This document shows positions 1,475 through 45,564 of a stretch of DNA of 64,000 nucleotides, piece by piece; the stretch's first letter is position 1, and every line of letters starts with the position of its first letter. Made by a program: the position numbers and the translations under genes. Source of the stretch: Lophium mytilinum (taxonomy: Eukaryota); NCBI GenBank assembly GCA_010093605.1, contig MU004184.1, positions 568,801-632,800 of the forward strand. Reading direction: 5' to 3'. The notes under the pieces are model-generated. The model worked only from the letters and a program-made list of their open reading frames with translations, was not told where the DNA came from and did not search any database.

Positions 1475-2437
1475 ATGGCCGAATCAGGAAAGGACAAGTC
1501 AGGTATGTCTCGCCCAAGCAATTCTTCCTGTGAGCATTGGCTAACTGTCGCAGCGAACGTGAGCTACCCATTACAAGCAGAATCGAGCCTATGAAACTAA
1601 TCATCTCGCCATCTAGCCCATGCGAGAGGTACTTCCCCCAATCCAGATTATGCCTTCCAGCGATGCCAATCCGCGCAATACCTACTCGAACCCTTCAACC
1701 ACTTGCGCAAGCATATCACAACATGGCTACACCTCAAACATCCGAGATACCGCTCTCGGACAAGGACACAAATGGAATTGGGCTGACAAGCAGTTTAGCT
1801 TCGAATCAGCAAGCTGGTTCTGAACATCTCGGTGGGAGAGGTACGAGATCTTGAACATCGGGAGATACATGGACAAAATAGCTGACTTTGACAGTCTGGT
1901 GATCGCTTGACTAGGGCCGCAAAGGTCTTGGAACAGCTTTCCGGTCAAACTCCTGTCTACTCCAAGGCACGATACACCGTCCGAACCTTCGGTATCCGTC
2001 GTAACGAGAAGATTGGTGCGTTCCTCGCAACCAAGTCACTAAGCCATTGACTGACCTTGCGTCTAGCCGTCCACGTCACTGTCCGAGGACCAAAGGCTGA
2101 GGAGATTCTCGAGCGTGGCCTCAAGGTCAAGGGTGCGTTAGCTGCCTGTCTCTGAGCTCCACAACCGCTAATTCATGTAGAATACGAACTCCGCAAGAAG
2201 AACTTCAGCTCGTCCGGCAACTTCGGATTCGGTATCTCGGAACACATCGACTTGGGCATCAAATACGACCCCTCCATTGGAATCTACGGAATGGACTTCT
2301 ACTGCTGCATGACCCGCCCCGGTGCCCGCGTTGCCAAGCGTAGGCGCTGCACCTCTAAGATCGGTGCCGCTCACCGCATCAACCAAGCCGAGACCGTCAA
2401 GTGGTACAAGAACCGATTCGAGGGCATCGTGCGATAA
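1475..2437 (+). CDS. RPL11: 60S ribosomal protein L11 (uL5)
   Basis: Spliced product [69 protein letters not shown]...[28 protein letters not shown]; includes micro-exons 1554-1558 and 1617-1628. Head-to-head with SmB (~350 bp apart). Confidence 0.97.
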
Positions 2438-3847
2438 ATGGGGAGAGGTTTCCGGAGGGTCTATTTCGGCATCAGGGCATGCATACCCGACTTTCAGTGC
2501 TGACTCGATTGTTCACTCACGGCGTCTCCATGTAATTTCGATACAAAAATCAGGAATTGAGGCCTATCAATGGAGCTAGCCTTGCTCTTCAAGAGCGGGT
2601 GTTGATCACAATACAATGGAGACTTCACGAGGGTGATGATCGCTTAACCATTGGTGATCTTGTTCTATGCTGGGTACTTGCGGCGAGGCGAAGTGTGATG
2701 TCTGAGTATACGTCCCCGTACATAATCCTCTGCAATGGCTCAAGGTAGGTCCTAGAGAACAGTCACTCCACAGTCCATCCCATATGCGCCCACAGCCTTC
2801 CCTACGCTGTTCTTTATATGTTGAGCTCCTAGCTGTTCTGATACAACTATTTTATAGAATAAACCAATACATCCCTACCGAAACGTTCTCTGATCCCCCC
2901 TATCATTGACGTATGCCTCCTTACTTCACATAAGCTATCTCGGGGATACCAACTCACCACTAACTAGTACTTCCACATCTAAGGATATCAAGTCAATGCC
3001 AAGTAACCGCAATGAATTCTCTCGCCCAGTCCCACCTTAAAGCGACGAGAACAATCAACAAAACCATGATTAACCCGAGCAAGGTCCTTCGCTTACGCGA
3101 AGTCGCATCCTCTGTGCTCGCCGCCATTACTCGAGGTACCTAGAACAGGAAATCCCATTCAGCTACAGTGATCCCTTACGGGTCTATAAATCACGCGGAA
3201 TTACTCCCTCTAGACTCAACGCTTCTCCCCTCGGAGTTCCCATCAGGAAACGTTCGAGATTGAAACCTGCGACACTCGGAACAAACTCCGGTAAGAGGGC
3301 TGAGATATGAGGTATTGAGATGTAAATGGGAGAAAGTCTGTGCGATTTTGAGACGGTGATTTTATATAGCACTGTACACACCTAGGTAGGACAGACTACA
3401 CTCGTGATGCCGAACTCGGACACGCCAAATCAGATCATGCCCATAGGGTAAATTACAGTGTTATAAGATGTACAAACGGGAGCCAGTCCGTGCGATTTGC
3501 CCTCGTGACGTGAACGGCACGGGTTACTGCCTTTAGGGCTACATAGCGAATTAGGCGAGAAATGTGAAGGACGTCATCGAAACACACGGATCGCTGGTAG
3601 GAGACATGGGAGGTGAAGGGCCGCGGACGGCAGGAGATTAAGCTAGAGAGGATCCGAGAATGTATTGGAGTATTGAAAAGGGAAAACAAGGCAGCATGCG
3701 CGCACAATATGGTCCTACAAAGCGGAAGTGAGATACAATGAGAGTCCTTCTATCTAGCTACGTGGTCGTGTTCTGAGTGATAGTCGAGGTCAATGGCAAC
3801 AATGTATGCTGGATCGCTTTCTCGGCGTGTCACGCTGAAGCGTAGTA

Positions 3848-4545
3848 TACGTGCGCAGCTACGCGGCAATGATTCTCCACATGCTTCTCAACCTCTAGCC
3901 AGATTTTGGCACCTAAAGCGCTTGAAACGCACGTAGCAGGAAGCTCATCGTAAAGGAGCTACTGGATACACATCAGCGCTGACAGAACCCGCGCCGCCTA
4001 CGTGCGCAGCTGCGTGGCAATGACGTTTCACATCCCTTGGAACATCTAGCTAGATTTTGGCACCCAGAGTCCTCGGAGCGCACGTGGAACGGGTCTCGGC
4101 GTAAAAAGGCTGGTGCCTCTGCGCGGCGTGGACTGAAACCGCTGATTACCTAGGTGCGCTGCTAGGCGTCAACTGTTCTTTGCATCATCTATATCTTCTG
4201 GCCAGACTTTGGCACCTAGGAACTGGCAGACGAACCTGGAATGCACAGAAATAGGGGGACGTTGGGTGTGAGAAGCATAAAACCAAGCATATTCGAAGTA
4301 TCTTACAAGCGCAGTGACGCGGCAACTGTTCTTTATTGGGTTATGACCTCTGCGCAAGATTTGGCACCTACAGACCTAATAGCGCACGTAGATCGGGCGA
4401 GGGGAAGGAGAGTGCTTACTTGAGGAATGTGAAAGTAGCCGGCAACAACCTCACTTACGCGGCAACTACGCGGCAATGACTTCTCCCTCGATTGCTAATA
4501 TCTGGTTAGGATTTACGCACTTGGATTTCTAGGAGCGCCCCTAGA
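3848..4545. repeat. Degenerate tandem array of five ~152-bp units (conserved block plus divergent spacer)
   Basis: Unit starts at 3848, 3999, 4151, 4304, 4456 (TACGTGCGCAGCTACGCGGCAATGA-like). A shared AGATTTTGGCACC-like motif has its GGCACC at 3908, 4059, 4211, 4363 (degenerate at ~4516). Confidence 0.85.
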
Positions 4546-5316
4546 TAGTACCAAGATAATGAAGCGCTGTTTGAGTCTGATACACGCGCATACACGCTAC
4601 AAATGGTTTTTCAGGTCGTAGGTCTCTTTCCAGTATTTACGCTCCTATTTCTTATAGTGCTGGTAGGCTGAACAGAAGCGAAATATCTTTGTGGGTCCCG
4701 AGCGCCGAGTTGTTCTGGAAGCCAGCCGTTTGGAGTCCTGTCTACATCGCGAACGTTCCTTGCGCGGCTTGAATAACATTCCATGACGAATTCAAAGTGG
4801 AGGAGGACTATAGGGCCTTGGGGCGAATCTGTGGAGAAGCAGTGACTGAACCCAAGAGGCGTTATGAAGATGAAGATGAGTGCCGTTTTGGATCCCTAGG
4901 CGACGAAAGATAAATAGGGTATGAGTTTGGACACACGAAGATCACGATGCTTGCGCCCCAATCTTGCTCGTTGCATGTATTCGGGCTGCCAAAACGCAGT
5001 CTGATATTCATCTTACCAACCTTTACATCCTTTGTAGTCTCAAAGACCTACGAGACTACGTATGGAGATAGAGAGGGTTCCACGCAGTCCAAATGATACT
5101 CAGAAATCACGGACGACGAATTTGAGTGGAAAGTCATTGATTAGACCCATCTAAGTTTACCTCAGGCCAATGGAACCAACATCTTGGAAGGGAATGAAGG
5201 CCTTTCACGCTCAGTCTGGTGTAAGAGGACATGAGTATCGAACCACACCGATACTTACAGTCTTATTCCCGTAGTCTCCACCTTCAAAGACTCGCAGGGG
5301 CTCTCGCCGCTCTGCC

Positions 5317-7832
5317 CTAATGAAATGCGGACGCCGGCAATCCATGAGCGATTGCAACGTCCCTCAAGCAGTCGCACATGCGCACAGCCGGCCCCATTGC
5401 AATGTTGGCTGGCAAGTACGGCTGGAAGTCGTGAAGAATACCCATATTAGTGCTGCATTTGTAGGCAGATCTCACTTCGGCTTCGACGAACTTTGATCCT
5501 TCGAAGTATTGCTTCACCTTTTCCAGCGTCAACTCAGCCAGGCCCGGAATCTCGTATCCCATACCCGCAGCGAAGATGCAGAGATGCTCCAGCAGCGACA
5601 GCTTCCTCTTGGTGAGTGGGTCGATTGTGAAGCCAAATTTGACGTCCGCAGTAGTGTCTGGCTCCACATAAGTATCGTAGTCACCGGAATAGATGAACTC
5701 GATGACACGGTCCATGACGATACGGTCCCAGCGTTCGTATCTCACGGTTCCGCCCGACTATTCAGAACAGATTAGTCAGAACTATAAGGTATGTATTTAA
5801 GTGAGCACTTACCGCTGCATCCTTGGGAATGAGATCACCAGCTTTGGAGGCAATGACGGCCATGTGAACATTCCACTTGTGGGCCTTCGTCGTGATCGTG
5901 TAATCGCTGTATTTGCCAGTTTGGAGAAGCTGAAGGAATGAGCTAGCAAAGTTAGTAAAGGCCTCCATTGGAGATAGCTGCGAATGACTTACTCCTTGGG
6001 ATGATCATCCTTGAGCTCGTTTTTCTTGCCAGGGGGTCCCACCCGGACAGGTGCTACTCCGGAGTTCGCAGAAGTTGTAGGCTGAGACTGGAAGATACCA
6101 GAGCTCGGAACTCCACGATGGGGCATGAGGGGAGTAGTATTTGATCCTCCGAAGTTGCTAGAATGCTGTTCTCTGAAGAAGTCGCTAGAATACAGGGGCT
6201 GACAGGACGCCAAAGGAATGCTCCACTCTCCAACCTGAGGGCGCGTCTGTCCCTGGCCGAAGAGATTACTAGACTGATGTCCGTGGCCTCCATACCCTTG
6301 TCCGCTGAAGGCCCCATAGTGTGGTCCGTAGCTATCATATGGTGTTCCAAAACGTCTAAACTGAAGCTGGGCCGCCTTCATTCGTGCTTCCCGCTCCTGG
6401 TCTACTTCAAGCGCACTCTGCATAGAAGTCCTGAAGCCTCCAAAGCCCGTACCTGCTTGATATTGGGCCTGTCCGTCGTTCAGCTCAGAGCCAGAAGAGT
6501 ATCCAAAGCGGCTACCCGGCTGTTGTCCTCCGAAGAGACCAGAAGACTGTGCTGCGTTCGTAGGGGCATAAGAGCTGAATGCGCCAAAGACACCCTGTCC
6601 ATGGTACTCGCGGGGTGCTGCTGAGCCAAACAGGCCGCCGCCAGACTGTCGTCCTGCCGCAACTGTAGACGGGGTGCCAAAGAGACCACCGCCAGAACGT
6701 TGTCCTGCCGAAGCCGTAGATGGGGCACCAAATCCGCCAAAGAGACCACCGCCCTGTCCCTGACGATCGCGAGATACTGCTGAGCCGAACAGACCGCCAC
6801 CAGACTGTTGTCCTGTCGAAACTGTAGACGGGGTGCCAAAAAGCCCCCCGGAGGATTGGCCCTGTCCCTGGTTCTCGCGGGATGTGAACAGGCCACCACC
6901 AGACTGTCGTCCAGTCGAAGCTGTAGACGGAGCGCCGACTGTAGAGCCAAACAGGCCGCCGCCAGACTGTTGTCCTGTCGAAGCTCTAGACGGGGCGCCG
7001 AATGCGGAGCCAAAGAGGCCGCCGCCAGACTGTGTCCCTGTCGAAGGTTTAGACAGGGCGCCAAATCCGCCAAAGAGACCACCGCCCTGTCCCTGGTTAT
7101 CGCGGGATGCTCCCGAGCCAAACAGGCCGCCACCAGACTGCCGTCCTCTCGAAGCTCCAGGCGGAAGGCCAGAAAGACCGCGCTTTGGGTTTGAAGGATC
7201 TCCGAAGAGGCCCCCTCCTGGCTGCCTATCATGAGTTTGAGGGGCTGGCTTGACCTTCGACTCCGGCTTGGATGCCGCGTGTTTGGACTGCATTAGAGAC
7301 GGCAAGAGTGTATTCTCCGCATGCTTAGACTGCATCGGAGCAGAAGAGAGGGTAGAATTCGCGCCACTCATAGCGCCGGTGATGCCTTGACCACAACCAG
7401 CTGCCGCGGGATGTGAGGCGATGTTCTGCGAAGGTCCACCTGCCCGATCGCTGTAATGGCATGGCATGCCGCTTCACGATGTCAGCGCCTGTGTTCAACG
7501 GAAGAATTGTTTAACGGCATCACTTACTCTTTTGCACATTCTGTACACTTTTCACCACCACCTGAACACTGGATTCCCGCACTGTGGCACGTGTCGCATG
7601 CCATAGGAAGGAACTGTCCCTGATTCACTCCATCGGCGCCAACAGTGGTCTTTGTGACGTGATTGGCTTCGTCATTGGTAACTCCCGCGACGCTGGGCAT
7701 AGTAGGGCCATTGAGTTGGCTGCTGGGCTGCGGGGAAGCCATCTTTGCAGTGCCGTCGGTGGAGGGTGTCGGGGGGGAAGTGTCGGAGCTTGTGGACTCG
7801 AGGTCCTCGACAAACGCTGGCTTGGGTTGCAT
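5317..7832 (-). CDS. Zn(II)2Cys6 DNA-binding domain + GLFG-repeat region + BTB/POZ domain protein (~784 aa)
   Basis: Exons 7528-7832, 5993-7471, 5813-5942, 5317-5757 sum to 2355 nt in one frame; all donors are GTAAGT. Splicing completes CDTCHSAGIQCSGGGEKCTECAKDGMPC. Middle region has 11 GLFG motifs. C-terminus has LLQTGKYSDYTIT..WNVHMAVIAS...VMDRVIEFIYSGDY, typical of fungal BTB domains. Confidence 0.85.
6529..7224 (-). repeat. Coding imperfect tandem repeats encoding (Q/R)SGGGLFG units
   Basis: Recurring plus-strand CCAAACAGGCCGCCGCCAGACTG / CCAAAGAGACCACCGCC motifs about every 50-70 bp. Confidence 0.9.
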
Positions 7833-42765: not shown

Positions 42766-44742
42766 ATGCTTTCACTATCATCGTTGATGCCGGTCCTTCT
42801 CGAGTATCTCACGATCGAGGAGGAGGCGCAAATCTATCAGCAGTTTGAAGGAATATGCCAACCCAACAGCCAAGTCCTGTGGAGCGGCGTGCCGTACGGA
42901 GTGGCTCAGAAATGGGCAGATGAACATGATATGCAGACACTTACTACCGCAATGGGTCCGCTCATGGATAAAGCGGATTCATTGTGTTTAAAAAAGAGCA
43001 AGAACGGTCCGCAATGGAGCAAATACATCAAGGGAGCCTCTGCAGTATTTGCGTGGTATATTTCAAGTGGCGAAAAGGTTACAACGCTGTCGCCACCACC
43101 TCCGGAAAGATTCCATCCATCTGGAATGACCAACTACCAAGCAATCGAAGAGCCAATTTTAAAATGGGCAATAGCGGACCGTGCTATACTACGGATCGAA
43201 ATGGTGCATCCGACCGTGAAAGGAGCAGAGAACTTCAGCTACCAGATGTGGCCCATTGATGAAATGAAAAACTGGGTTGCAGCCTTTGGGACTGTAGCCA
43301 TCAAGAAGAACCGTTGGAGAGTAATGGGGAAGGTCTTGCATCAAATGGCAATTAGGAAGTCCATAACGACCAATGAGAAATCTGATGTTGGACATAGCAC
43401 CAGTCATTACAGTCAAGAGAGCGAACTTGGTATGCGTATGCCAATTGTGAGAGAGCAGAAAAAAGTAAGCTAGGTTTATATTAGGAGATTTTCAGAAACG
43501 ATTATAGTATTAGGATATAAAGCTAACGACAAAAGATACAGGAGTCCAAGGAAACGGCCAAGGCAATCCAACCCTCCAAGACTACAACGTTAAAGAAAGA
43601 AGCAGTCCAAGAGAAACTATCCACAGAGACCAAAAAAGCATTGAAAGCAATGAAAGCGTTAAGGGCAAAGAAAGCTCCAAAGGTAAGAAAGCTTCTACAG
43701 CCAAGAAAGGGCCGAATAGCTAATTATCAGTACAAGAGAACTCGAGACAACAGTCAAAGAAAGGAGGCCACCTTGGTCCAGGAAACTACGGCACCGTACT
43801 ATTCGCGAATGGAGTCATACAGGATCTACGTAGCAGGACTTATTTTGCTAGTTTTGCTGGTCGCTCTCATCCAATGCGCACTCTGCGCCTACGAAGAGCC
43901 TGCTGTTGAGGAGCATGAAAGCCTAATGGGCGCTAGTGCTTCCATGATGTCTAGCGAATTACCTTTTCCTTCACCTCCTCCGCCACCCGAGGTTCTGAAA
44001 TCAGTAGAGGAGGTCTCCGAGACTCCCGGGCCTCCCACCGTTGAAAAGCCTGCCGCGGTCGAATGGCCTGCTCTCAAAAGGCCTCCCGCAATCAAAAAGC
44101 GGGTCGCCGCCATCGATCAACACACTGAGGACACCCGTACGAAAGACTCCGAAACGTCTCCCCACCCGGACTGGTGGACTCTTGTAACTGAAGCAATGCA
44201 ATCTACTCTGGCCAAAAAAAAAGGAGGAGAAGAAGGCGAAGAAGGCAGAGAAGAAGGCAGAGAAGAAGGCAGAGAAGAAGGCAGAGAAGAAGGCAAAGAA
44301 GGGCAAGAAGGATAAAAAGACTTTGACACCGTTTTCACCGGCGCCTCCACCGCCGCTTGAGCTACCAACCGAGTGGGAAGCTATTTCCCTACCGTCTTCA
44401 CCTCCGAAGAAACCGACAGCGAAGAAGGGTGGGAAAGGTAGAAGCGCTTCACCACCGTCTCAACCATCACCTCCGCGGCCGCTTATGCCGACTACCAAGT
44501 GCGAGGTCAGTCCACCGCCGTCTTCACTCCTTAAGATACCCAAAGAAAAGCAGGAGGGTAAGGAAAATAAGAAGGGCAAGAAGGGGAAAAGGACTCGACC
44601 GCCGTCTTTACCGCCGCTTCCATGGCTGCCTGAGCTGTCTGTCAAGTACGAAGCCGTTGAGCTTCCCGCCGAGTCCCGATTTAGGCTAACACGATACAAC
44701 CTACGGCCTCGACTATTGAATGAGCGTCTAGAGACTTTATGA
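42766..44742 (+). CDS. Hypothetical protein (globular N-terminal domain, TM segment, Lys/Pro-rich tail) with an apparent frameshift
   Basis: ORFs 42766-43473, 43641-44315 and 44323-44742 can be linked by GTAAG..AG introns (~43468-43540, ~43683-43730) and a one-base shift at the A9 run 44214-44222. TM-like IYVAGLILLVLLVALIQCALCAY. Confidence 0.55.
44227..44310 (+). repeat. 12-bp coding minisatellite (GAGAAGAAGGCA)n
   Basis: About 4 perfect copies plus degenerate flanking copies are directly visible. Confidence 0.9.
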
Positions 44743-45564
44743 AAGACTCAAACTGCTATATTGTTTCCATGTTCGTATCACTGTTCTGCAGACAGTTGTA
44801 TCCCTAAGACGGCATGTCCTCAAGACAGCATATTCTTCAGATAGTATTTTCTTGCACAGCCATAGTCGTACGATCAGCTATAGTCTTAAGACGGTGGCGT
44901 CTCAAGATGGGGACGTTCTCCTGACAGTTGCGCTCTCCTCAAGGTCGACCCGTCTCGTAACAGTTATATTCTCAGGATATGCTTTTATAATCAGAAGCCA
45001 CTATGCCTCACTATTTTCTGAAGTTTCTTTGTTATTTGCCTCTGAATAGTACGCCTTAATAATAATAAAGAGTCTAGCTTCAGAAAACATTAGAACCTAT
45101 TAGCCACTCACAGCTATACCTTTGCATAGATAATAAAGCAGCGCAGACCATCCTCAGGCATGACATATCAGAGGGTAAGCTTACTCGAAACTTAGGGCCC
45201 TGAAACGGGAGCCTAGGAGGCCTATGAGTTCAAAAATAGTCCCTCCGAGGCAGGGTAAGAACCCTAGTCTCGACAATCTTCTTTCGAATACAGGGCCTAG
45301 AACTGAGGTTCCAGCAAAGCTGCTCAGTCCCCACTCAGGATGCGCCCACCCCAGCACAACCACAGCTCAGGCTGGAGCATGAACAACTCAGCTTGCTGAA
45401 CGGGAAAGGAAATTGCTTGGGTGCATATTAGGGTTTCGTACTGCATGTTTCAAGTGTATTTTGAATGAACCTCTCAAGCATTCAAGTATTAGAGAGTCCC
45501 CAAGCAGCAACATCAACACCCTACCCACCCAGCCATCGCTCAAAATATGAGCAGCCAACCACGC

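What the first reader, a model, noticed from the sequence alone, without database searches (positions are those of the whole stretch)
3848..4545. Non-coding ~152-bp repeat-spacer array with inverted-repeat-bounded units
Seen: five units at spacings 151/152/153/152 bp. Each has a ~88-bp conserved block (TACGTGCGCAGCTACGCGGCAATGA ... TCTRGCYAGATTTTGGCACC ... GCGCACGTA) followed by ~63 bp that aligns poorly between units. Block ends are inverted repeats (TACGTGCG at 3848 vs CGCACGTA at ~3928; TACGTGCGC at 3999 vs GCGCACGTG at ~4078). Length is conserved despite sequence divergence, and the spacings are mostly not multiples of 3, so this is not a coding repeat. Inference: selection on spacing and motifs, as in phased protein-binding sites near nucleosome length, an array of structured RNAs, or recombination cassettes.
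Basis: partly seen in the sequence, partly recalled or inferred. Interest (0 to 1): 0.75.

Follow-up and report, generated by a model that had tools for sequence, protein, structure and literature searches.

The report
Decaying 152-bp intergenic tandem array
Six old, diverged copies of a 152-base non-coding unit sit between two fungal genes that point at each other; three short motifs in each copy changed much less than the rest, so the array may still do something, but what it does is not shown.

Summary
Five units start at 3848, 3999, 4151, 4304 and 4455/4456, with periods of 151-153 bp. I add a sixth, degenerate unit at 4581-4667.

The window is from a filamentous ascomycete-like eukaryote. 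The array lies between the 3' ends of two convergent transcripts, in single-copy DNA.

It is not coding:
- The periods are not multiples of 3.
- There is no codon periodicity.
- There are no Pfam hits.

It matches no Rfam family or tRNA.

Divergence is clearly not uniform. Blocks are 59-76% identical. Spacers are near saturation yet still faintly homologous, and four of five kept 62-64 nt. Three islands per unit are conserved.

Support for RNA structure is weak. Folding energies are ordinary and covariation is marginal.

My best reading is an old local tandem amplification whose motif islands are kept as repeated factor-docking sites. Neutral decay, an RNA array and a transposon origin remain open.

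No relatives could be fetched, so conservation across species is untested.

The parts
3848..3998 (+). Unit 1: block 3848-3936, spacer 3937-3998 (62 nt). It is the closest of the five units to units 2, 3 and 4 and a near-tie for closest to unit 5.
3999..4150 (+). Unit 2: block 3999-4087, spacer 4088-4150 (63 nt). Its block is 76% identical to unit 1. The terminal inverted repeat is 9-10 bp, counting one T-G pair.
4151..4303 (+). Unit 3: block 4151-4239, spacer 4240-4303 (64 nt). One position of the terminal inverted repeat changed on both arms (C-G to G-C).
4304..4455 (+). Unit 4: block 4304-4391, spacer 4392-4455 (64 nt). Its terminal inverted repeat is broken at two central positions. It shares an 11-nt variant of the 5' motif with unit 3.
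4456..4580 (+). Unit 5: block 4456-4543, shortened spacer 4544-4580 (37 nt). It begins with an 11-nt tandem duplication (4456-4476). It is the most diverged of the five clear units.
4581..4667 (+). Unit 6, new here: a degenerate block-like stretch.
   Evidence: nhmmer E 0.49; semi-global z 5.4 and alignment
3848..3877 (.). Conserved island M1 in unit 1 (alignment columns 1-30). It holds the 5' arm of the inverted repeat and a near-palindrome, CGCAGCTRCG.
   Evidence: Column identity among units 1-4 is 0.6-0.8; motif positions are.
3892..3916 (.). Conserved island M2 in unit 1 (about columns 45-70). It holds TTTGGCACC, which is present in units 1-4.
   Evidence: Column identity 0.58-0.77; TTTGGCACC at 3905, 4056, 4208 and 4360.
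3927..3936 (.). Conserved island M3 in unit 1 (columns 81-90): the 3' arm of the inverted repeat.
   Evidence: Column identity 0.77.
4015..4233 (.). The stretch covered by one 219-nt contig (depth 2.5, no differing letters) of run X3, a run whose other contigs join across GT..AG introns. It spans the end of block 2, spacer 2 and most of block 3.
   Evidence: tables 5 and 8. The strand is unknown and DNA carry-over is not excluded.
2206..3495 (+). Left neighbour. A transcript contig runs from the last exon of the uL5/RPL11-type ribosomal protein gene (CDS ends 2437) to 3495, with a GT..AG intron at 2911-2967. Its 3' end faces the array.
5058..6757 (-). Right neighbour. A minus-strand gene (FG-repeat N-terminus, stop at 5317) whose transcript contig ends at 5058. 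Its 3' end faces the array.

Best explanation
The array is an old, locally born tandem amplification of a 152-bp non-coding unit, now six copies at 3848-4667. It lies in the ~1.5-kb gap between two convergently transcribed genes of a filamentous ascomycete-like genome.

Whole units, block and spacer together, were duplicated. Since then about 60 of the 152 positions, in three islands (M1, M2, M3), have changed roughly 3-5 times more slowly than the rest. The rest has drifted almost to saturation, while unit length was kept in four of five intervals.

I read the islands as repeated docking sites for one or more sequence-specific factors. They contain short palindromes of the kind dimeric DNA-binding proteins use: the TACGTGCGC / GCGCACGTA arms, which recur every 71-80 bp in alternating orientation; CGCAGCTRCG; and GCCA-N5-TGGC. 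On this reading the array is a phased binding platform on the DNA, for example a boundary or roadblock between the two converging transcription units. It is now eroding from its 3' side (units 5 and 6).

Shown here:
- the array, its non-coding nature and its single-copy setting;
- the uneven conservation;
- the homology of the spacers.

Inferred, not shown:
- selection as the cause of the unevenness;
- protein binding, and any role in termination or insulation.
For: - Units and spacing.
- Whole-unit duplication: the spacers are still homologous in register (0.335 against 0.283; 3 of 1000 shuffles reach it). The unit 1 and unit 2 spacers are 55% identical, reached by 3.5% of shuffles.
- Uneven conservation: blocks are 59-76% identical and spacers 38-55%, against a null of about 47%. 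The scan statistic is reached by 0 of 300 permutations.
- The islands are visible in 10-column steps. Identity is 0.8, 0.7, 0.6, 0.45, 0.58, 0.67, 0.77, 0.35 and 0.77 across the block, then 0.30-0.45 in the spacer.
- My own Jukes-Cantor arithmetic on these identities gives about 0.28 substitutions per site in the islands against about 1.3 in the spacers. This is rough, because the spacers are near saturation.
- Not coding.
- Not only repeat-induced point mutation: transitions and transversions are about equal.
- No stable fold that would favour RNA over DNA.
- Palindromic cores: and direct reading.
- Setting between two 3' ends, and single-copy depth (159.5 across the array).
Against: - No relative from another species could be fetched, so constraint is inferred only from paralogous units of one array.
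- No binding protein or known motif was identified, and no motif library was available.
- The three core motifs are not enriched elsewhere in the 64-kb window.
- A site between two 3' ends has no promoter to serve.
- Units 4-6 have broken arms, and the unit 5 to unit 6 spacing is 125 bp. If there is selection, it does not hold the whole array.
- Uneven conservation could also come from short gene-conversion tracts, or from conversion by a second locus. One other contig of the same genome matches 3861-3914 at 46 of 54 positions, closer than unit 2 is to unit 1 over that stretch.
- One C-G to G-C double change, and several G-U-compatible changes that pair better on the + strand (85.3% against 76.1% of cells), lean slightly towards an RNA reading.
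Confidence: 0.38

Rival explanations
1. Functionless decaying minisatellite. This is a tandem duplication that is simply eroding. The block-versus-spacer contrast comes from mutational or recombinational unevenness, such as short conversion tracts confined to the better-matching parts or conversion from a second locus. It does not come from selection.
For: - Decay runs along the array. Units 1-2 are best kept, units 5-6 worst, and the unit 5 to unit 6 spacing is cut to 125 bp.
- The inverted-repeat arms are broken in units 4 and 5.
- The motifs are not found elsewhere in the window.
- No stable fold and no known family.
- A second genomic locus with a 46/54 match exists and could act as a conversion donor.
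Against: - The conservation contrast is strong: 0 of 300 permutations, about 0.61 against 0.33 mean column identity.
- The contrast repeats as three separate islands in 4-5 units.
- The longest exact matches between units today are only 13 nt (read, families D1 and D2). From recall, that is short for homologous conversion.
- Four spacers kept 62-64 nt although nearly saturated with substitutions.
Confidence: 0.3
2. An RNA array. Either each ~88-nt block is a small non-coding RNA gene with a fast-evolving spacer, as in 5S or spliced-leader gene arrays. Or the whole array is a low-level long non-coding RNA whose repeated blocks are protein-binding modules closed by a terminal stem.
For: - Gene-plus-spacer anatomy.
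- A 9-10-bp terminal stem is intact in units 1-2 and partly kept in unit 3, with one C-G to G-C double change.
- The consensus structure is paired in 85.3% of cells on the + strand against 76.1% for its mirror on the - strand.
- Percentage paired and covariation slightly exceed shuffles (22/500 and 30/500).
- One 219-nt contig of a run that holds spliced RNA covers 4015-4233.
- The spacers are purine-rich on the + strand (A 0.30, G 0.30).
Against: - None of 40 RNA folds (5 units x 4 registers x 2 strands) has z at or below -2; the range is -1.9 to +2.4.
- RNAalifold gives only about -12 kcal/mol with a positive covariation term on both strands.
- The shuffle control used is known to be passed by 5-25% of unconstrained alignments (tool text), and the structure was derived on the + strand.
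- No Rfam match with E up to 10 beyond two chance-level rows, and no tRNA.
- By eye there are no C/D or H/ACA boxes, no A/B boxes and no conserved T-run. These motifs are recalled, not scanned.
- The stems are broken in units 4 and 5.
- The RNA contig has depth 2.5, runs straight through a spacer, and may be DNA carry-over.
Confidence: 0.17
3. Transposon-born array. The units are the internal tandem repeats of an old non-autonomous DNA element, as in tandem-repeat-containing MITEs. The conserved islands are relics of transposase-binding or junction palindromes, with no present host function.
For: - Unit size and number (~150 bp, up to 5-6 units) and a palindrome at each unit junction resemble DTC84/pearl-type elements. 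The abstract of PMC3879986 describes up to five core repeats, each with a palindrome near the junction.
- A fragment of a dispersed repeat lies 350 bp upstream, at 3452-3499. Its depth is about 3900 against about 160, and about 23 contigs diverge at each of its edges.
- A block-like sequence exists at one other locus of the genome.
Against: - No inverted terminal repeats or target-site duplication bracket the array. The inverted pairs found are at most 18 nt at 72-92% and do not flank it.
- At 80% likeness the array is single-copy apart from one 54-nt match.
- Other copies of the dispersed repeat continue with a different sequence beyond 3499 (table 7), so the array is not part of that family's usual body.
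- No transposase remnant was found.
Confidence: 0.15

Closest known systems
Tandem-repeat-containing MITEs (DTC84 of Donax trunculus, pearl-type elements). I read the abstract of PMC3879986 and nothing else of the paper.
   Same: - A short array of up to about five core repeats.
- A palindrome near each unit junction.
- Unit variants in a fixed order. Here units 3 and 4 share one variant of M1, and units 1, 2 and 5 share the other.
   Different: - Those elements are high-copy and have flanks with short inverted repeats, a target-site duplication and a microsatellite at one array end. None of these was found here.
- They are from bivalves and insects, not fungi.
Gene-plus-spacer arrays of small RNA genes: 5S rDNA and spliced-leader RNA arrays (recalled, no paper read)
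   Same: A conserved segment of about gene size alternates with a fast-evolving spacer of kept length. The ends of the conserved segment can pair.
   Different: - No covariance-model match.
- No fold stability.
- No recognisable polymerase III signals by eye.
- Only six units, which are themselves 24-41% diverged.
Satellite monomers with a conserved protein-binding box, e.g. the CENP-B box in alpha satellite (recalled; listing only)
   Same: A monomer near nucleosome length, with conserved boxes inside otherwise variable monomers.
   Different: Six units in a gene-dense, single-copy intergenic gap, not a long homogenised array. No binding protein is known.
Repeat modules of long non-coding RNAs, e.g. 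the Xist A-repeat (recalled)
   Same: Conserved cores separated by variable spacers, in a handful of copies.
   Different: The cores here are far longer (~88 nt), spacer length is fixed, and transcription is barely evidenced.
CRISPR arrays
   Same: A repeat-and-spacer look, with a partly palindromic repeat.
   Different: - This is a eukaryotic locus.
- The repeats are 88 nt and only 59-76% alike.
- The spacers are homologous to one another, so they were duplicated with the repeats and not acquired.
- The only Rfam CRISPR row is a chance-level match (E 3.4, 16.5 bits against a gathering score of 45).

Membership tests
Protein-coding tandem repeat | Period a multiple of 3 | tested here: not met
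   Periods are 151, 152, 153, 151/152 and 125. All other long-period repeats in the window, which lie in coding ORFs, have periods that are multiples of 3.
Protein-coding tandem repeat | An open frame and a three-base periodicity of substitutions | tested here: not met
   Stops occur in all frames across the array. Differences by phase are 63/64/63.
Protein-coding tandem repeat | A domain match | tested here: not met
   No credible Pfam hit for the ORFs of 3453-5096. The only row there is one vWF_A match at E 0.017, below its cut-off.
Known structured RNA family (Rfam 15) or tRNA | A covariance-model match at the gathering score, or an ARAGORN call | tested here: not met
   0 matches at gathering score in the window. 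Only two rows with E of 3.4 and 6.8 in 3300-5200. 0 tRNAs.
Novel structured RNA (general criteria) | Folding energy below shuffled sequence | tested here: not met
   None of 40 RNA folds has z at or below -2. Of 8 DNA folds, 1 has z -2.67 and its counterparts have -1.38 and +2.11.
Novel structured RNA (general criteria) | Compensatory changes beyond controls | tested here: inconclusive
   3 pairs have double changes. Covariation is 0.259 against 0.211, reached by 30/500 shuffles. Only five related sequences are available, and the RNAalifold covariation term is positive.
Tandem-repeat-containing MITE (DTC84/pearl type) | Short array of core repeats with a palindrome near the unit junction | tested here: met
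   Six units. The arms TACGTGCGC / GCGCACGTA bracket each junction in units 1-3. The feature list comes from the abstract of PMC3879986.
Tandem-repeat-containing MITE (DTC84/pearl type) | Flanks with inverted repeats and a target-site duplication | tested here: not met
   No inverted pair brackets 3848-4667. An old element could have lost them.
Tandem-repeat-containing MITE (DTC84/pearl type) | Many dispersed copies in the genome | tested here: inconclusive
   At 80% likeness there is only one extra 54-nt match in the DNA run of the same genome. No genome is held for a profile search.
Duplication mutated by repeat-induced point mutation (RIP) | Differences almost all C-to-T and G-to-A transitions; AT-enriched | tested here: not met
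   Transitions and transversions are about 1:1 for 9 of 10 unit pairs in the blocks and for all 10 in the spacers. GC is about 0.50. An early RIP episode under later changes is not excluded.
CRISPR array | Near-identical short repeats with unrelated, acquired spacers | tested here: not met
   The repeats are 59-76% alike and 88 nt long. The spacers are homologous.
Phased protein-binding site array | Conserved motif islands at fixed spacing | tested here: met
Phased protein-binding site array | A protein that binds the sites, or nucleosome phasing | not testable with these tools
   No motif library and no ChIP or MNase data.

The most novel reading that the evidence does not exclude
Each ~88-nt block is a working copy of an undescribed fungal element. 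It could be a small or modular non-coding RNA closed by a 9-10-bp terminal stem, or a composite binding platform. Selection would keep it in several tandem copies and at one or more other loci of the genome, giving a lineage-specific 'gene-plus-spacer' family that no RNA or repeat library yet holds.
Probability: 0.2. Interest if true: 0.6.

Novelty: new member of a known kind. Interest (0 to 1): 0.35.

Why it matters
Short, diverged tandem arrays in gene-dense fungal DNA are usually dismissed as decaying duplications. In this one the paralogous units serve as an internal test of constraint. About 60 positions in three islands stayed alike in four to five units, while the rest ran to near saturation without losing length.

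If comparison with related species confirms that pattern, the locus would be a compact natural example of a repeated cis-element or RNA module between convergent genes. Deleting it would be a simple way to test for a role in termination or insulation. If the pattern is not confirmed, the array is an ordinary minisatellite and needs no further attention.

Tried and rejected
**Searches that found nothing**
- Whole-genome search: no genome is held for this window.
- Earlier findings of this scan, by place and by two sequences: nothing.
- Metagenome scan with a degenerate 21-nt M2 pattern: 3 loci (L001-L003). blastn of 3400-5000 against them matched only 13-35 nt, at the pattern site or as short stray matches, on contigs of 43-46% GC. 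These are chance hits, not relatives.
- Scan of prokaryote genome contigs with a 22-nt M1 pattern: 0 hits.
- Further block copies or copies of the 3440-3520 element in the window: none by blastn-short or nhmmer.

**Sequencing runs**
- No RNA holder was listed by the look-up of sequencing runs.
- In the laid run X3, the parts 3510-3911 and 4314-4916 had no cover. Runs X4 and X6, from other organisms, covered only the ribosomal protein gene, and X4 also 3452-3497.

**Readings rejected**
- Coding repeat: rejected.
- Exon-plus-intron units, since the spacers are of fungal intron length: rejected. Splice-site-like strings are not conserved between units (reading), and the one RNA-run contig runs unspliced through spacer 2.
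- Hammerhead or other ribozymes, snoRNA, tRNA-like, 5S: no Rfam or ARAGORN support. Box motifs were checked by eye from recall only.
- RIP as the sole cause of divergence: rejected.
- Block-spacer pairing within a unit: whole-unit folds have z between 0.0 and +2.3.
- A unit upstream of 3848: z 0.8.

**A resemblance not pursued**
- A 10-nt string of M2 also appears in the consensus that follows other copies of the 3452-3499 repeat (table 7). By my rough count, about 0.1-0.3 such matches are expected by chance, so I treat it as unproven.

**Literature**
- Two full-text searches gave no paper on a comparable fungal array. Only listings were seen, apart from the abstract of PMC3879986.

Full report
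**What is there**

Reading 3400-5000 and running repeat finder and MAFFT confirm five head-to-tail units. They start at 3848, 3999, 4151, 4304 and 4455/4456, with periods of 151-153 bp.

Each unit is an ~88-89-nt block followed by a spacer. The spacers are 62, 63, 64 and 64 nt, and 37 nt after unit 5.

A profile of the five blocks finds nothing else in the 64-kb window except a weak sixth unit at 4581-4647 (E 0.49). A semi-global score against blocks 1-4 gives that stretch z 5.4. An unrelated control stretch reached z 2.5, and the stretch upstream of unit 1 z 0.8. The array is therefore six units, 3848 to about 4667, and it gets more degenerate towards its right end.

Tandem Repeats Finder does not report it. 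In an autocorrelation scan it is the only long-period repeat in the window whose period is not a multiple of 3.

**Setting**

The window is eukaryotic and looks like a filamentous ascomycete. Pfam finds a fungal-specific transcription factor domain, a nucleoporin FG region, a NatB subunit and DUF7730. No genome is held for it.

On the left, the last exon of a uL5/RPL11-type ribosomal protein gene ends at 2437 (Ribosomal_L5_C). Run X3 holds spliced RNA, because its contigs join across GT..AG introns. One X3 contig runs from 2206 to 3495 with an intron at 2911-2967.

On the right, a minus-strand gene is covered by an X3 contig that ends at 5058.

The array thus sits in a ~1.5-kb gap between two 3' ends. 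The DNA run X1 may be the source of the window, so it is not independent. It carries the array on one 3288-nt contig at single-copy depth, 159.5.

**Not coding, and not a known RNA**

- Stops interrupt every frame.
- Pairwise differences among units 1-4 fall 63/64/63 over the three column phases.
- Of 22 ORFs between 2156 and 6004, only the ribosomal protein exon has a credible Pfam match.
- Rfam gives no match at gathering score in the window, and only two chance-level rows in 3300-5200 at E up to 10.
- ARAGORN finds no tRNA.

**Uneven divergence**

Block pairs are 59-76% identical, while shuffled blocks reach at most 58%. Spacer pairs are 38-55% identical, at the level of shuffled spacers, for 9 of 10 pairs. 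Only units 1 and 2 (55%) are reached by fewer than 5% of shuffles.

The spacers are nevertheless homologous. Their in-register, gap-free identity among units 1-4 averages 0.335 against a null of 0.283 ± 0.019, reached by 3 of 1000 shuffles. Whole units were therefore duplicated. The spacers were not acquired separately.

A scan for the best-contrast segment picks columns 1-94 of the alignment, and 0 of 300 column permutations reach its score.

Within the block, three islands stand out:
- M1, columns 1-30, identity 0.6-0.8.
- M2, about columns 45-70, identity 0.58-0.77.
- M3, columns 81-90, identity 0.77.

Two stretches as variable as the spacers (0.35-0.45) separate the islands.

By my own Jukes-Cantor arithmetic, the islands have about 0.28 substitutions per site and the spacers about 1.3. 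Transitions and transversions are about equal in both compartments and GC is about 0.50, so repeat-induced point mutation alone does not explain the divergence.

Four spacers kept 62-64 nt while nearly saturated. That is notable, but the unit 5 to unit 6 interval lost about 27 nt.

**Inverted repeats and structure**

The arms TACGTGCGC and GCGCACGTA bound the block in units 1 and 2. Unit 3 keeps most of the stem, with one C-G to G-C double change. Units 4 and 5 have mismatches. Because the two arms are each other's complement, they bracket the spacers just as well as the blocks.

- Folding energies are ordinary. Forty RNA folds (five units, four registers, two strands) have z from -1.9 to +2.4.
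- Of eight DNA folds, one has z -2.67, but its counterparts have -1.38 and +2.11.
- RNAalifold gives about -12 kcal/mol with a positive covariation term on either strand.
- On the + strand, the consensus structure is paired in 85.3% of cells against 82.2% after shuffling (22/500). Covariation is 0.259 against 0.211 (30/500).
- The mirror structure on the - strand is paired in 76.1% of cells.

With five related sequences and a structure derived on the + strand, this is at most a faint lean towards a + strand RNA.

**Other evidence**

One 219-nt contig of X3 (depth 2.5, no differing letters) covers 4015-4233, running through spacer 2. It may be a rare transcript or DNA carry-over.

In X1, a different 2455-nt contig matches 3861-3914 at 46 of 54 positions. 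A block-like sequence therefore exists at one or more other loci of the same genome, and over that stretch it is closer to unit 1 than unit 2 is.

The three core motifs are not enriched elsewhere in the window.

Scans of the metagenome collection and of prokaryote genome contigs gave only chance hits or none. No cross-species comparison was possible.

**Interpretation**

The firm part is that this is an old, local, non-coding tandem amplification with strongly uneven conservation.

My preferred reading (0.38) is that the three islands are kept as repeated docking sites for sequence-specific factors on the DNA, perhaps marking a boundary between the converging transcription units. The reasons are that the islands carry short palindromes, no fold is favoured, and spacing is kept.

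The rivals are:
- Neutral decay with uneven conversion (0.30).
- An RNA array or modular long non-coding RNA (0.17).
- A transposon-born internal array (0.15).

The last concerns origin and could coexist with the others. The closest described thing in anatomy is the tandem-repeat-containing MITE DTC84, which has up to five core repeats, each with a palindrome near the junction (abstract of PMC3879986). Its defining flanks and high copy number were not found here.

**Verdict**

The structured-RNA idea gets only weak support, and the transposon test could not be run.

This is a modest curiosity until comparison with related species says whether the islands are truly constrained.

Noticed in passing
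window 3452-3499: A ~46-nt dispersed repeat. In the DNA run of the same genome, the depth of the bin holding it jumps to about 3900 against about 160, and about 23 contigs diverge at each of its edges. Several contigs carry it twice in a row. A run of another organism (X4) matches it with 6 differing letters, and contigs of the RNA-holding run X3 with depths of 47-589 carry it. There is no Rfam or tRNA match. Other copies continue differently beyond 3499.
   Followed up: partly
window 2437-3495 (+): A transcript contig continues about 1 kb past the stop of the uL5/RPL11-type gene, with a canonical intron at 2911-2967 (GTATGC...ACTAAC..TAG). The spliced sequence has no ORF above 44 aa and there is no Rfam hit in 2300-3600. 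It is either a long spliced 3' UTR or a separate non-coding transcript.
   Followed up: partly
window 5758-5992 (-): The RNA-run contig joins 5993 to 5757, skipping a 133-nt stretch (5944-5812). That stretch has its own GTAAGT and YAG signals on either side and an open frame. This looks like an exon-skipped isoform of the FG-repeat gene.
   Followed up: partly
window 6379-7401 (-): In-frame repeats of 63 and 333 bp encode GGLFG-type FG repeats (Nucleoporin_FG, E 3.4e-09) in a 494-codon ORF.
   Followed up: no
window 44136-44868: A second coding-type repeat zone, with periods of 12, 126, 147 and 273 bp, all multiples of 3.
   Followed up: no
window 4456-4476: An exact 11-nt tandem duplication (1.9 copies) at the start of unit 5. 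It doubles the CGCGGCAA core of motif M1.
   Followed up: no
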